Assembly (NCBI RefSeq): GCF_058153355.1
Contig: NZ_CM177019.1
Length of the DNA stretch: 64,000 nt
Direction: 5' to 3' (one strand)
Shown: one piece after another, positions 17,964 through 20,900 of the stretch
Numbering within the stretch: the stretch's first letter is position 1
How the letters are laid out: every line of letters starts with the position of its first letter
Position numbers: made by a program

Positions 17964-20900
17964 TTAACCACATTATTAGTAACAATGATAATCTGGCTGT
18001 ATCGAAAATAATTCTAAACTTTCAGGAGATTTATTATGAATAAACGTATCCTCACGATTGCGCCATTCTTCTTACCGATATTCTGACACACATCATTAAC
18101 TTTCTATTTTTACTCTTTTCTCCACCATAAAATCAATAAAAGCACGAACTTTAGAGGGCATTCTCACCCGTGATGAAACATAAATATAAAATCCAGGAAA
18201 TGAAACAGCCCAATCCTCAAGAATCGGCTGTAACTTGCCCGCATTGATATGTTCAGCGATTGCAAAATCCAGATGTTGAATGATACCCGTTCCATTCAGC
18301 GCCATTCGTATCATGCTTTCGTCATCATTAGAAATATACTTACCTGAAACCTCTATTTCGAACTCTTCATTACCCCCCACAACATTAGAAAACTCCCATG
18401 CAGAGAGTGCACCGCTACTTTTATGCCGCAACCGAAGGCAATTATGGTTACTCAGTTCCTGAGGCGTTTCAGGAATACCGTGTTCTTTTAAATAATCTGG
18501 CGATGCCACAGTAACCAGTTTAATAAGCGGAGAAACAGGAACGGCAGTCATATGCTCATCCAGTCCTTGCTCAAGACGTATGCCCACATCACAGCCGTCC
18601 GCAATAATGTTAGATAAACCGTCATCCATAATGAGTTCTATCTTTGTTTTGGGGTAACGAGTAAGAAACTCGCCAATATGAGGCTCAACAAGCATCCGTG
18701 CTGCAACACGGGAGGAATTTATTCTCAACAGGCCTGTAGGTTCAAGTTGGGTATCACCAACATCTTTCAAAGCATCATCAATTTGCCCCAAAGCCGACAC
18801 CAGCACTTCATACAGACGCTGTCCTTCCTCAGTAAGCGACATATTGCGGGTCGTACGGTATATCAGCTTGGTGTTAAGACGTTCCTCAAGAGATTTTAAA
18901 TTCTGGGACAATGCGGCCCGCGTAATACCCATTTCAGAAGCGGCTCTGGAAAAACTGCCGGCACGAACAATCAGCGCAAACCAGGCAAGAGAAGGCAAAA
19001 TTGAAGGCTCTATTTTCATCATTGTAAACCTTAACTTAACACTGTGATAGATATTAGACCATTGATGATAACCAATACAAGTCATACTATTACGCCGTTC
19101 TCGATATGAACACAAATGCCAGTTGCGGATAATAGAAATGATATTTAAATCTGTTTAGGCAAATCCCTGGAGCTTGAAATGAAAACGGTTTCGATAAAAC
19201 ACACTTACTGGGATATAGCTGCTGATATCTATTTCCCTGACGATTTTAATAGTGAAAAAAAGTATCCTGCCATTATCAGTGCCCATCCAATTGGAAGCTG
19301 CAAAGAACAGACATCGGGTAGTGTGTATGGTGCCGCCCTGGCAAAAGCTGGCTTTATCGTCATTGCTTTTGATGCCAGTTTTCAGGGAAGCAGCGGTGGA
19401 GAACCGCGTTATCTGGAAGATCCAACAATGCGAGTAAAAGACTTCAGCATTGTCGTTGATTACCTTACCACCTTACCTTACGTTGATGCCGGGCGTATTG
19501 GTGTACTGGGTATTTGTGGTGGAGGTGGATATGCCATTAATGCCGCAATGACAGAACGTCGGATTAAAGCCATTGGTACTGTCACGGGTGCTAACTACGG
19601 GCGTCTTATGCGTGAGGGATTTACAGCGTTTAATCCTATCGGAGCACTCGAAGCAATGGCGCAACAAAGAACAGACGAAGCTAACGGCGCAAAACTTCGC
19701 GTAGATGATTTGCTCCCTTCTTCTCCGGAAGCAGCTCTTGAAGCGGGATTAACAGAAATAGACCTTTTTGAAGCAACAGAATATTATCGTTCGCCACGAG
19801 GCTGTGCGCCTAATGGGGTAAATCGTTCGCTATTTTCACATCAGACTGTTGCCGTGGGCTGGGATGCTTTTCATCTTGCAGAAGTCCTGTTAACTCAACC
19901 ACTAATGGTTGTAGTGGGCGATAGAGTGGGCGCTTTTGGTGCCTATCGTGACGGCTGCGAAATTATTGGTCGTGCAGCCTCAAAACATAAAGAGTTGGTC
20001 GTGGTTGAAGGTTATTCACATTACGACCTGTATGATAAGCCAGAACCTGTGAAACAGGCGCTCGATAAATTAATTCCTTTTTACAAAACACATTTGTAAT
20101 AACCTTGCAGGGAGATTCATTATCTCCCTGAGATTTATCCTTTATTGACTACACGACAATAATAAAATTACTCAAAAAGAATTCTATTAAAGGAAAAAAG
20201 CATCAAAAAGTAGCAACTCAACTTATTAAGATTATACGCATTAAAATCAGATAAACATTTGAGGTATTGTTATGATAAATAAACACCCATCATTGTTTTC
20301 TCCTTTTATGCTGACAGAAAAAATAAAGCTACGTAATCGTATCGTTATGGCCCCTATGACGACCTGGTCAGCTAATCCTGATGGAACCATCTCTGAGCAA
20401 GAACTCGAATTTTATAAACGTCGCTCACAAAATGTTGGTTTAGTAATAACAGGATGCACCTATGTCACGCCAAGCGGCATTGGGTTTACTCATGAATTTG
20501 CCGCATATGACGACCGTTTCATTAACAGCCTTGAAAAGTTAGCTGCTGCAGCCAAAAGTGGCGGTGCTCCGGCTATTTTGCAGATTTTCCACGCCGGTAA
20601 TAAAGCCATCCCGGAGCTTGTGCCAAATTACGATGTTATTAGTGCCAGCGCATCAAGCGTAAAATCTGGTGACTTTATGAAGAGAGTGGTACAAAGCAGG
20701 GAAATGACTGAAAACGAAATTCAGGAAACCATTAGAGCATTCGGAGATGTCACAAAAAGGGCGATTAAAGCAGGTTTTGATGGCGTTGAACTTCATGGTG
20801 CGCACGGATTCCTTCTGCAGAATTTCTTCTCCCCTCTATTTAACCAGCGTAATGACCGATGGGGAGGAGATCTTGAAGGACGTATGCGCTTCCCGCTGGC

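What the first reader, a model, noticed from the sequence alone, without database searches (positions are those of the whole stretch)
19179..20099. Four paralogous alpha/beta hydrolases all carry Cys at the nucleophile elbow
Four ORFs are involved: 19179-20099, 43908-44840, 44840-45760 and 38760-39896. They share the N-terminal HP.G..KEQT.G motif. Their nucleophile-elbow sequences are G-I-C-G-G-G-G, G-I-C-A-G-A-G and G-I-C-G-W-G-G. Their C-terminal motif is (S/N)H.(D/E)LYD. A cysteine where most alpha/beta hydrolases have serine is the hallmark of dienelactone hydrolase (G-x-C-x-G). In the first paralog this is Cys113, encoded by TGT 19515-19517. Four such paralogs in 27 kb, each next to a LysR gene or to reductases, is unusual for E. 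coli, and I cannot assign a substrate.
Basis: partly seen in the sequence, partly recalled or inferred. Interest (0 to 1): 0.55.

Follow-up and report, generated by a model that had tools for sequence, protein, structure and literature searches.

The report
Four YcjY-type cysteine alpha/beta hydrolases
The four genes are real paralogs of the E. coli YcjY / Pseudomonas PA2218 hydrolase family, which uses cysteine where most relatives use serine; two crystal structures exist, but no substrate is known.

Summary
Four ORFs (19179-20099 +, 43908-44840 -, 44840-45760 -, 38760-39896 -) are 32-63% identical alpha/beta hydrolases. In each, Cys sits in the G-I-C-x-x-x-G elbow between strand 5 and the following helix.

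They are not dienelactone hydrolases in the family sense. They belong to the YcjY/PA2218 family (COG1073-type). P3 is about 93% identical to crystallised E. coli YcjY (5XB6), and P4 is about 65% identical to PA2218 (2HDW). Both structures have no assigned function.

Across the family, 140 of 149 representative clusters have Cys at the elbow and His is kept. The canonical acid site after strand 7 varies (S/E/D/T/G), so the conserved core is a Cys-His pair.

The recurrent neighbours in 80 loci from many phyla are:
- a divergent LysR gene;
- a second family copy in tandem, with the YcjY type first;
- an NmrA-like NAD(P)H-binding protein.

The OYE link seen in the window is rare elsewhere.

P1 and P4 are common E. 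coli accessory genes (39% and 17% of complete genomes). The P2-P3 block lies on a 13.6-kb island at tRNA-Thr.

The most likely function is thioester-intermediate hydrolysis of an anionic ester or lactone in LysR-controlled reductive detoxification. The substrate is unproven. The GXCXG motif in YcjY was already noted in 1999.

The parts
19179..20099 (+). P1: 306-aa cytoplasmic YcjY-family Cys alpha/beta hydrolase. Elbow GICGGGG, Cys113 codon at 19515-19517, His281 codon at 20019-20021, Asp248 at the canonical acid site.
18096..19022 (-). LysR-family regulator divergent from P1. The start follows RefSeq homologs; the ORF lister extends it to 19115.
20272..21414 (+). Old-yellow-enzyme family NADH:flavin oxidoreductase downstream of P1.
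38760..39896 (-). P4: 378-aa PA2218-type member with a probable Sec signal peptide (MKAF...MSYA/DS). Elbow GICGWGG, Cys168 codon at 39393-39395 (the only Cys in the protein), His353 codon at 38838-38840.
37491..38684 (-). MFS transporter downstream of P4.
40083..40967 (+). LysR-family regulator divergent from P4.
44840..45760 (-). P3: 306-aa YcjY-type member, about 93% identical to crystallised E. coli YcjY (5XB6). Elbow GICAGAG, Cys117 codon at 45410-45412 (the only Cys), His281 codon at 44918-44920, Ser at the canonical acid site.
43908..44840 (-). P2: 310-aa member, 63% identical to P1. Its ATG overlaps the P3 stop codon (TAATG at 44840), which implies translational coupling. Cys115 codon at 44496-44498, His284 codon at 43989-43991.
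45869..46798 (+). LysR regulator (PgrR/YcjZ-like) divergent from the P3-P2 operon.
43251..43901 (-). NmrA-like NAD(P)H-binding protein (PF13460). It is the most recurrent non-regulatory neighbour of the family.
42345..43178 (-). Classical SDR oxidoreductase in the same operon direction.
41178..42305 (-). Second OYE-family flavin oxidoreductase, 52% identical to the one beside P1.
41061..54644 (.). Island that is not found at this position in the two comparison E. coli genomes. It abuts tRNA-Thr (54651-54726), carries the P2-P3 block, and has a split P4-type integrase at 53293-54488.

Best explanation
The four genes encode members of the YcjY/PA2218 family of lid-bearing alpha/beta hydrolases. 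In this family the catalytic nucleophile is a cysteine, not a serine.

Proposed mechanism: the elbow Cys (C113 in P1) is activated by the conserved loop His (H281). It attacks a carbonyl and forms an S-acyl (thioester) enzyme intermediate, which water then resolves. The third triad member is dispensable or variable: Asp in P1, Glu in P2 and P4, Ser in P3.

Several near-invariant charged residues, including K42-E43-Q44, R77 on a flexible G-x-S-G-G-x-P-R loop, R128, R164 and R207, probably bind an anionic small-molecule substrate.

Each gene is controlled by its own divergent LysR regulator. The genes are co-transcribed with NAD(P)H-dependent reductases (NmrA-like, SDR, OYE). The enzymes therefore most likely open an ester, lactone or thioester bond during inducible detoxification or catabolism of reactive carbonyl compounds. 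P4 probably does this in the periplasm.

What is shown: family membership, the position of the Cys, and conservation of Cys and His. What is inferred: thioester catalysis, the anionic substrate and the detoxification role.
For: Family membership:
- PDB sequence search gives 5XB6 YcjY at 1.5e-188 for P3 and 2HDW PA2218 at 7.6e-125 for P4. P1 hits both (3.7e-67 and 2.9e-44).

Cys at the nucleophile elbow:
- The model shows strand 102-112, C113, helix 114-125.
- The Cys aligns to the Ser of GLSMGG in 8B4U.

Conservation:
- Cys is present in 140 of 149 aligned 50%-identity cluster representatives, with 2 Ser, 2 Ala and 5 Gly.
- Cys is present in 81 of 81 family ORFs from 60 loci across many phyla, and His in all but two truncated ORFs.
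- The elbow Cys is the only Cys in P3 and in P4, so it is not kept for a disulfide.
- The acid site 248 varies: S31, E24, D16, T8, G7.
- K42, E43, Q44, D65, G70, S72, G74, P76, R77, R128 and R164 are at least 88% conserved. R207 is 100 of 127.

Context:
- A LysR gene is adjacent in about 29-37 of about 78 loci.
- A tandem second family copy is present in 21 of 60 loci.
- NmrA-like neighbours recur.
- Natural fusions to CMD-CMD and cupin domains, and a fusion of two family domains, exist.
- The nearest named NCBIfam model is the UilS acyl-homoserine lactonase, far below its cutoff (PMC11633161).
Against: - No biochemical assay exists for any member in the literature I could search.
- I could not measure Cys-His geometry, because model coordinates are not exposed.
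- The substrate class rests on context that consists mostly of regulators. No conserved pathway emerges.
- The OYE link seen in the window occurs in only 2-3 of 80 other loci.
- In E. coli K-12, ycjY is in the PgrR regulon together with the murein-peptide amidase gene mpaA (PMC5934670). That points to peptides rather than esters.
- The closest structural neighbours outside the family, DcsB and GrgF, are acyl-transfer or thioesterase enzymes.
Confidence: 0.6

Rival explanations
1. They are genuine dienelactone hydrolases (carboxymethylenebutenolidase, EC 3.1.1.45) that feed a chlorocatechol or hydroxyquinol-type pathway.
For: - They carry the G-x-C-x-G elbow.
- Pfam DLH scores sit just above its gathering cutoff, 21-38 bits against 21.
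- Conserved Arg residues could bind a carboxylate. I recall Arg81 and Arg206 doing this in DLH.
Against: - The DLH match covers only the N-terminal half of the model and, for P1-P3, is beaten by Peptidase_S15.
- A lid of about 100 residues is present, and the acid residue is not conserved.
- No catechol dioxygenase, cycloisomerase or maleylacetate reductase appears among the most frequent neighbour families in 80 loci.
Confidence: 0.05
2. They are cysteine peptidases or amidases acting on peptidoglycan-derived peptides, as the K-12 operon ycjY-ymjDC-mpaA under PgrR suggests.
For: - The PgrR (YcjZ) regulon includes ycjY together with mpaA and ycjG (PMC5934670).
- The canonical locus lies between mpaA and mppA.
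- ycjY overexpression causes filamentation (PMC3614548).
- The best Pfam hit for P1-P3 is Peptidase_S15.
Against: - The LysR-hydrolase-hydrolase-NmrA module recurs in several phyla without mpaA, ycjG or mppA homologs among the frequent neighbour families. Peptidoglycan genes flank it in only 2 related loci.
- The S15 match covers only the N-terminal half, and no PepX C-terminal domain is found.
- The window copies sit beside reductases, not peptide genes.
Confidence: 0.12
3. They are acyltransferases or polymerases that use the Cys thioester for transfer rather than hydrolysis. One example is the cPHB synthase role proposed for ycjY in 1999. Another is a thioesterase/cyclase role like that of DcsB.
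For: - From memory, Cys in place of Ser in this fold is typical of PHA synthases and of BAAT.
- Rychlewski et al. listed ycjY, ysgA and yghX as candidate cPHB polymerases (PMC3709699).
- The nearest non-family structures are DcsB and GrgF.
- There are weak BAAT_C hits.
Against: - No PhaC-type domain is detected at E <= 0.01.
- No acyl-CoA, ACP or PKS genes appear among the frequent neighbours.
- The cPHB polymerase later identified in E. coli was a different protein, YdcS (PMC3709699).
Confidence: 0.08
4. They are quorum-quenching acyl-homoserine lactonases like Serratia UilS. This is a specific sub-case of lactone hydrolysis.
For: UilS (NF047920) is the best named NCBIfam model for all four, with E-values from 1e-18 to 3e-24. 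UilS degrades AHLs in vivo (PMC11633161).
Against: - Scores are 67-86 bits against a cutoff of 400, so these are not UilS orthologs.
- No LuxI or LuxR genes are nearby.
- I could not establish whether UilS has Cys at its elbow.
Confidence: 0.08
5. The Cys is not a catalytic nucleophile. Instead it is a sacrificial or sensing thiol that traps electrophiles or oxidants.
For: - The context is rich in electrophile- and redox-type genes (OYE, AKR, NmrA-like, nearby rclRABC).
- The thiol is exposed at the elbow.
Against: - His281, the pocket residues and the full hydrolase scaffold are strictly co-conserved.
- The few representatives that lose Cys often also lose His. That is the pattern expected of a catalytic pair.
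Confidence: 0.04

Closest known systems
E. coli YcjY (PDB 5XB6, 'uncharacterized protein')
   Different: The window copy is a second, horizontally acquired locus. It is about 80% identical in nucleotides to the canonical locus and 92% identical in nucleotides (94-97% in the encoded proteins) to the Shimwellia pseudoproteus locus. It sits on a tRNA-Thr island and is extended by SDR and OYE genes. YcjY itself has no assigned activity.
Pseudomonas aeruginosa PA2218 (PDB 2HDW, hypothetical protein)
   Same: P4 is about 65% identical. It shares GICGWGG, (N/S)HVDLYD, the N-terminal extension and Glu at the acid site.
   Different: PA2218 is a structural-genomics entry with no published function in the library I searched. 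The P4 context (MFS plus LysR next to paoD) is specific to Enterobacterales.
Dienelactone hydrolase (ClcD/TfdE, Pfam PF01738)
   Same: It has the alpha/beta fold, a Cys in G-x-C-x-G, a covalent thioester mechanism and probably a carboxylate-bearing substrate.
   Different: From memory, DLH is about 236 aa without a lid and has a fixed Cys-His-Asp triad. Here there is a lid of about 100 residues, a variable third residue, only a half-length Pfam match, and no aromatic-pathway neighbours.
UilS acyl-homoserine lactonase (NCBIfam NF047920)
   Same: It is the best-scoring named family, is collinear over nearly the full length for P2, and has experimentally shown lactonase activity (PMC11633161).
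   Different: Scores are 67-86 bits against a cutoff of 400. UilS is shorter (285 positions). Its nucleophile residue was not determined here.
DcsB / GrgF fungal trans-acting alpha/beta hydrolases and Chloroflexus hydrolase '202' (7D78, 6LZH, 7QJM)
   Different: Identity is 17-19%. From memory they are serine enzymes that act on carrier-protein thioesters or polyesters. No PKS context exists here.
PHA synthase PhaC / BAAT (Cys-nucleophile acyltransferases of the same fold)
   Same: Cys replaces Ser in the lipase box, and the intermediate is a thioester.
   Different: There is no detectable sequence-family relationship beyond the fold. BAAT_C hits have E-values of 1e-3 to 1e-4, and there are no PhaC hits.

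Membership tests
Alpha/beta-hydrolase fold superfamily | Strand-nucleophile-helix elbow with small residues (G-x-Nu-x-G) after strand 5 | tested here: met
   The AF2 model has strand 102-112, C113, helix 114-125. G111-I-C113-G-G-G-G117 is invariant in the four paralogs. The Cys aligns to the Ser elbow of 8B4U.
Alpha/beta-hydrolase fold superfamily | Catalytic His in the loop after the last core strand | tested here: met
   H281 lies in the loop after strand 271-276. It is invariant in the four paralogs and is His in 106 of about 123 aligned representatives.
Alpha/beta-hydrolase fold superfamily | Acidic triad residue in the loop after strand 7 | tested here: inconclusive
   Position 248 is D (P1), E (P2, P4) and S (P3). 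Family-wide it is S31, E24, D16, T8, G7. Geometry could not be measured.
YcjY / PA2218 family (COG1073-type) | Full-length sequence and fold homology to 5XB6 and 2HDW | tested here: met
YcjY / PA2218 family (COG1073-type) | Signature residues K-E-Q after strand 3, D-x-S-x-x-G-x-S-G-G-x-P-R, G-I-C elbow, H-x-D-L-Y-D | tested here: met
   All are present in the four paralogs and at least 88% conserved in 150 representatives. D283 and D286 are somewhat lower.
Dienelactone hydrolase (Pfam PF01738, EC 3.1.1.45) | Full-length match to the DLH profile as the best-scoring family | tested here: not met
   Hits cover model positions about 12-125 of 217 only, score 21-38 bits (cutoff 21), and are below Peptidase_S15 for P1-P3 and below PETase for P4.
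Dienelactone hydrolase (Pfam PF01738, EC 3.1.1.45) | Cys nucleophile in G-x-C-x-G | tested here: met
Dienelactone hydrolase (Pfam PF01738, EC 3.1.1.45) | Fixed Cys-His-Asp triad and a compact lid-less domain | tested here: not met
Dienelactone hydrolase (Pfam PF01738, EC 3.1.1.45) | Hydrolysis of dienelactone to maleylacetate | not testable with these tools
   An enzyme assay is needed.
UilS quorum-quenching lactonase (NF047920) | Score at or above the curated equivalog cutoff (400 bits) | tested here: not met
   Scores are 67-86 bits.
Peptidase S15 (X-Pro dipeptidyl peptidase, PF02129) | Full catalytic-domain match, Ser nucleophile and a PepX C-terminal domain | tested here: not met
   For P1-P3 only model positions about 4-142 of 262 are matched. 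P4 has no S15 hit at all. The nucleophile is Cys, and no C-terminal domain hit is found.
PHA synthase (PhaC) | PhaC-type domains around a G-x-C-x-G-G box | tested here: not met
   Only the box itself is shared. No PhaC family hit appears at E <= 0.01.

The most novel reading that the evidence does not exclude
The YcjY-type and P1/P2/P4-type proteins may work as a conserved two-enzyme unit, possibly a heteromer. The evidence is a tandem arrangement with the YcjY type first in 16 of 17 tandem pairs, start/stop overlaps, and one natural fusion of two family domains. This unit would define a previously unrecognised class of Cys-His dyad alpha/beta hydrolases. It would act on a widespread but unidentified anionic electrophile or lactone, sensed by the divergent LysR regulator.
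Probability: 0.15. Interest if true: 0.55.

Novelty: new member of a known kind. Interest (0 to 1): 0.3.

Why it matters
YcjY is one of the remaining function-unknown enzymes of E. coli K-12. Its family is large: at least 841 clusters at 50% identity with E <= 1e-30. It is strikingly conserved, with P1 being 75-82% identical between E. coli, Burkholderia, Pseudomonas, Stenotrophomonas, Rhodococcus and Mycobacterium.

Three results from this work turn a vague 'alpha/beta hydrolase' annotation into a concrete target for deorphanisation:
- Cys is the family-wide nucleophile.
- The acid residue is dispensable.
- The genes travel as LysR-controlled pairs with NAD(P)H-binding proteins.

The LysR regulators offer a direct route to the inducer and hence to the substrate. 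It is not a new kind of system.

Tried and rejected
- **Literature searches.** Searches for YcjY, 5XB6 and PA2218 gave no biochemical characterisation. All but one PA2218 hit looked like a paleoclimate or other unrelated use of the string, and I did not open the one P. aeruginosa proteomics paper. Rychlewski 1999 is not held, so it is cited second-hand from PMC3709699.
- **D258 as the triad acid.** It is invariant in the window paralogs and in the 35-sequence alignment. I rejected it because it lies inside helix 252-265 of the model, is Thr in PA2218, and falls in a poorly aligned region family-wide.
- **An OYE-hydrolase 'reduce then hydrolyse' pathway as a family rule.** An example would be coumarin to dihydrocoumarin to melilotate. 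I rejected it as a general feature, because OYE neighbours occur in only 2-3 of 80 loci. It remains possible for the E. coli copies.
- **Membership in DLH, Peptidase_S15, UilS or PhaC.** Each fails a defining test.
- **A peptidoglycan role as family-wide.** It is not supported by neighbours outside E. coli.
- **AhpD-type redox function for the fused CMD domains.** No CxxC motif is present in P0130 or P0140.
- **The nucleophile residue of UilS.** I could not determine it, because no sequence was obtainable with the scans I had left.
- **Direct measurement of Cys-His-acid distances.** This was not possible because model coordinates are not exposed.
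Full report
**Observation.** The four ORFs exist as described.
- P1 is 19179-20099 (+), 306 aa.
- P2 is 43908-44840 (-), 310 aa.
- P3 is 44840-45760 (-), 306 aa.
- P4 is 38760-39896 (-), 378 aa.

They are clear paralogs. P1-P2 are 63% identical, P1-P3 and P2-P3 are 41%, and P4 is 32-37% identical to the others, with E-values from 1e-35 to 1e-139. The elbow strings GICGGGG, GICAGAG and GICGWGG and the C-terminal (S/N)H.(D/E)LYD motif are exact. 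Cys113 of P1 is TGT at 19515-19517. The N-terminal motif HP.G..KEQT.G fits P1-P3; P4 reads GPFGAVKEQSSG. In P3 and P4 the elbow Cys is the only cysteine in the protein.

**Where the Cys sits.** An AlphaFold2 model of P1 (35-sequence alignment, mean pLDDT 77.9, pTM 0.81) places C113 between strand 102-112 and helix 114-125. This is the classical nucleophile elbow. H281 lies in the loop after strand 271-276, and a lid occupies roughly residues 136-241. HMMER aligns GICGGG onto the serine elbow GLSMGG of PET46 (8B4U).

**Which family.**
- Pfam gives only weak, mostly half-length hits. These include Peptidase_S15, Hydrolase_4, DLH and PETase, at 21-41 bits.
- NCBIfam gives the UilS acyl-homoserine lactonase model at 67-86 bits against a cutoff of 400.
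- The PDB sequence search is decisive. P3 is about 93% identical to E. coli YcjY (5XB6, E 1.5e-188). P4 is about 65% identical to P. aeruginosa PA2218 (2HDW, E 7.6e-125). P1 hits both.

These are therefore YcjY/PA2218-family enzymes, not members of the dienelactone hydrolase family. They share the Cys-for-Ser substitution with DLH.

**Family-wide features.**
- A profile of the four paralogs finds 841 clusters (50% identity representatives) at E <= 1e-30 and 4044 at E <= 1e-10.
- Among the best 150 representatives, the elbow column is Cys in 140 of 149 aligned sequences, with 2 Ser, 2 Ala and 5 Gly. Several of the Gly cases also lack the His.
- All 81 family ORFs recovered from 60 loci in diverse phyla have Cys, and all but two truncated ORFs have His.
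- The canonical acid site in the loop after strand 7 (position 248) is not conserved: S31, E24, D16, T8, G7. It is D in P1, E in P2 and P4, and S in P3 and YcjY. The conserved catalytic core is therefore a Cys-His pair. A full Cys-His-Asp/Glu triad is plausible only for P1, P2 and P4.
- Other near-invariant residues are K42-E43-Q44 just after strand 3, D65, the loop G70-x-S72-G-G74-x-P76-R77 (low pLDDT, so probably mobile), R128, R164, Y203, R207 and D283-x-Y285-D286.
- Several conserved arginines suggest an anionic substrate. This is inference.
- P1 homologs are 75-82% identical in Burkholderia, Cupriavidus, Pseudomonas, Stenotrophomonas, Shewanella, Rhodococcus, Mycobacterium and a Firmicute. 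All are named only 'alpha/beta hydrolase'. P4 homologs are spread through Enterobacterales.

**Genomic context in the window.**
- The window is E. coli chromosome from ykgH through rcl, fdeC, ecp and pao to proAB.
- P1 has a divergent LysR gene and a downstream OYE-family flavin reductase. P4 has a divergent LysR gene and a downstream MFS transporter next to paoD.
- P3 and P2 form an operon with an NmrA-like NAD(P)H-binding protein, an SDR and a second OYE (52% identical to the first), opposite a PgrR-like LysR gene.
- The P3 stop and P2 start overlap (TAATG), which implies translational coupling.
- P4 has a probable Sec signal peptide. Some RefSeq annotations instead start 26 codons later.
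- The segment 41061-54644 is not found at this position in the two comparison E. coli genomes. It abuts tRNA-Thr (54651-54726) and carries a split P4-type integrase, so the P2-P3 block is on a genomic island.
- The block is 92% identical in nucleotides to the Shimwellia pseudoproteus locus, with 94-97% identity in the encoded proteins. It is also 92% identical to a differently located copy in E. coli strain C8, and about 80% identical to the canonical ycjY-pgrR locus.

**Distribution in E. coli.** The P1 gene is in 2115 of 5426 complete genomes and P4 in 912. A ycjY-type locus matches in 4401 genomes, and both hydrolases are intact in 1260. The intact canonical locus reads pgrR / ycjY - second hydrolase - NmrA-like SDR, then mpaA. 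This implies that the K-12 ymjD and ymjC genes are remnants of the second hydrolase and the SDR (inference). Multiple paralogs are therefore normal for the species, and only the extra island copy is unusual.

**Context across 80 loci from other genera.**
- The only strong partners are a divergent LysR gene (about 29-37 loci), a second family copy in tandem, and an NmrA-like NAD(P)H-binding protein (about 12 loci).
- The second copy is present in 21 of 60 loci. Of 17 tandem pairs, 16 have the YcjY type first, with gaps as small as -1 and -8 nt.
- AraC, MmyB/XRE and TetR regulators, CMD-cupin proteins, hexapeptide acetyltransferases, flavodoxin-like proteins and nitroreductases occur sporadically.
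- OYE neighbours occur in only 2-3 loci.
- No conserved catabolic pathway, peptide transporter or peptidoglycan gene set accompanies the family.
- Natural fusions exist: two family domains in one 632-aa protein, CMD-CMD-hydrolase with a signal peptide, and cupin-hydrolase. The fused CMD domains lack a CxxC motif, so they are not AhpD-like.

**Literature.**
- GXCXG in ycjY (with ysgA and yghX) was noted by Rychlewski, Zhang and Godzik (1999), who proposed them as cPHB polymerase candidates. This is reported in PMC3709699.
- ycjY overexpression causes filamentation (PMC3614548).
- ycjY-ymjDC-mpaA is listed in the PgrR regulon (PMC5934670).
- No enzymatic activity is reported for YcjY or PA2218 in the searchable library.
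- UilS, the nearest named family, is an experimentally supported AHL lactonase (PMC11633161). The window proteins are far below its cutoff.

**Most likely mechanism.** I propose covalent catalysis by a Cys thiolate / His imidazolium pair, forming an S-acyl enzyme on an ester, lactone or thioester that carries an anionic group. The lid shapes the pocket, and expression is induced by the cognate LysR regulator alongside NAD(P)H-dependent reductases. This fits inducible detoxification or catabolism of reactive carbonyl compounds.
- Shown: family membership, the position of the Cys, and conservation of Cys and His.
- Inferred: thioester chemistry, substrate charge and physiological role.

Rivals, with rough weights:
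- peptidoglycan-peptide peptidase: 0.12
- acyltransferase or cPHB synthase: 0.08
- AHL lactonase: 0.08
- true dienelactone hydrolase: 0.05
- non-catalytic thiol trap: 0.04

**Verdict.** The finding is a correct and careful reading of the sequence. What it describes is a set of members of an already recognised, structurally solved but functionally orphan family, and the Cys elbow was noticed decades ago. The added value here is fourfold:
- the family-wide Cys-His dyad;
- the recurring YcjY-type plus second-paralog operon;
- the island origin of P2-P3;
- the rejection of DLH membership.

Interest is modest.

Noticed in passing
window 41061-54644; tRNA-Thr 54651-54726; 53293-54488: A 13.6-kb island at tRNA-Thr with a P4-type integrase split into two ORFs. 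The cargo is almost entirely LysR regulators and redox enzymes (OYE, SDR, two NmrA-like proteins, two AKRs), plus a small MarA/SoxS-like AraC protein (51124-51498) and a DUF1471-like secreted peptide (50774-51100).
   Followed up: partly
window 15103-17936 versus 46958-49824: The AKR-AKR-LysR module is present twice in the window. The two copies are 95% (AKRs) and 90% (LysR) identical in amino acids and 86.8% in nucleotides. One copy is chromosomal and one is on the island.
   Followed up: partly
window 10289-14537: The fdeC/eaeH inverse-autotransporter adhesin gene appears as two overlapping ORFs (10289-13447 and 13326-14537). In strain A25 it is a single 4251-nt CDS. This suggests a frameshift or pseudogene here.
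   Followed up: no
P0127 (632 aa, metagenomic representative): A natural fusion of two YcjY-family domains in one polypeptide. Both domains carry the GIC elbow and the His motif. It mirrors the tandem gene pairs.
   Followed up: partly
P0130, P0140, P0143; loci L056, L057, L059, L062: P4-type hydrolases are fused to, or adjacent to, CMD-CMD and cupin domains. They carry signal peptides. At the four loci (Gastranaerophilales and related gut metagenome bins) they also sit beside a hexapeptide acetyltransferase.
   Followed up: partly
P1 residues 68-76 (window about 19380-19406): The most conserved loop of the family (G-x-S-G-G-x-P-R) is the lowest-confidence segment of the AF2 model (pLDDT below 50). 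It may be a mobile active-site loop.
   Followed up: no
window 38760-39917: The start codon of P4 is ambiguous. Candidates are TTG at 39917, ATG at 39896 (378 aa, with a signal peptide), and an internal ATG that gives the 352-aa form used in some RefSeq annotations. The choice decides whether the protein is predicted to be exported.
   Followed up: partly
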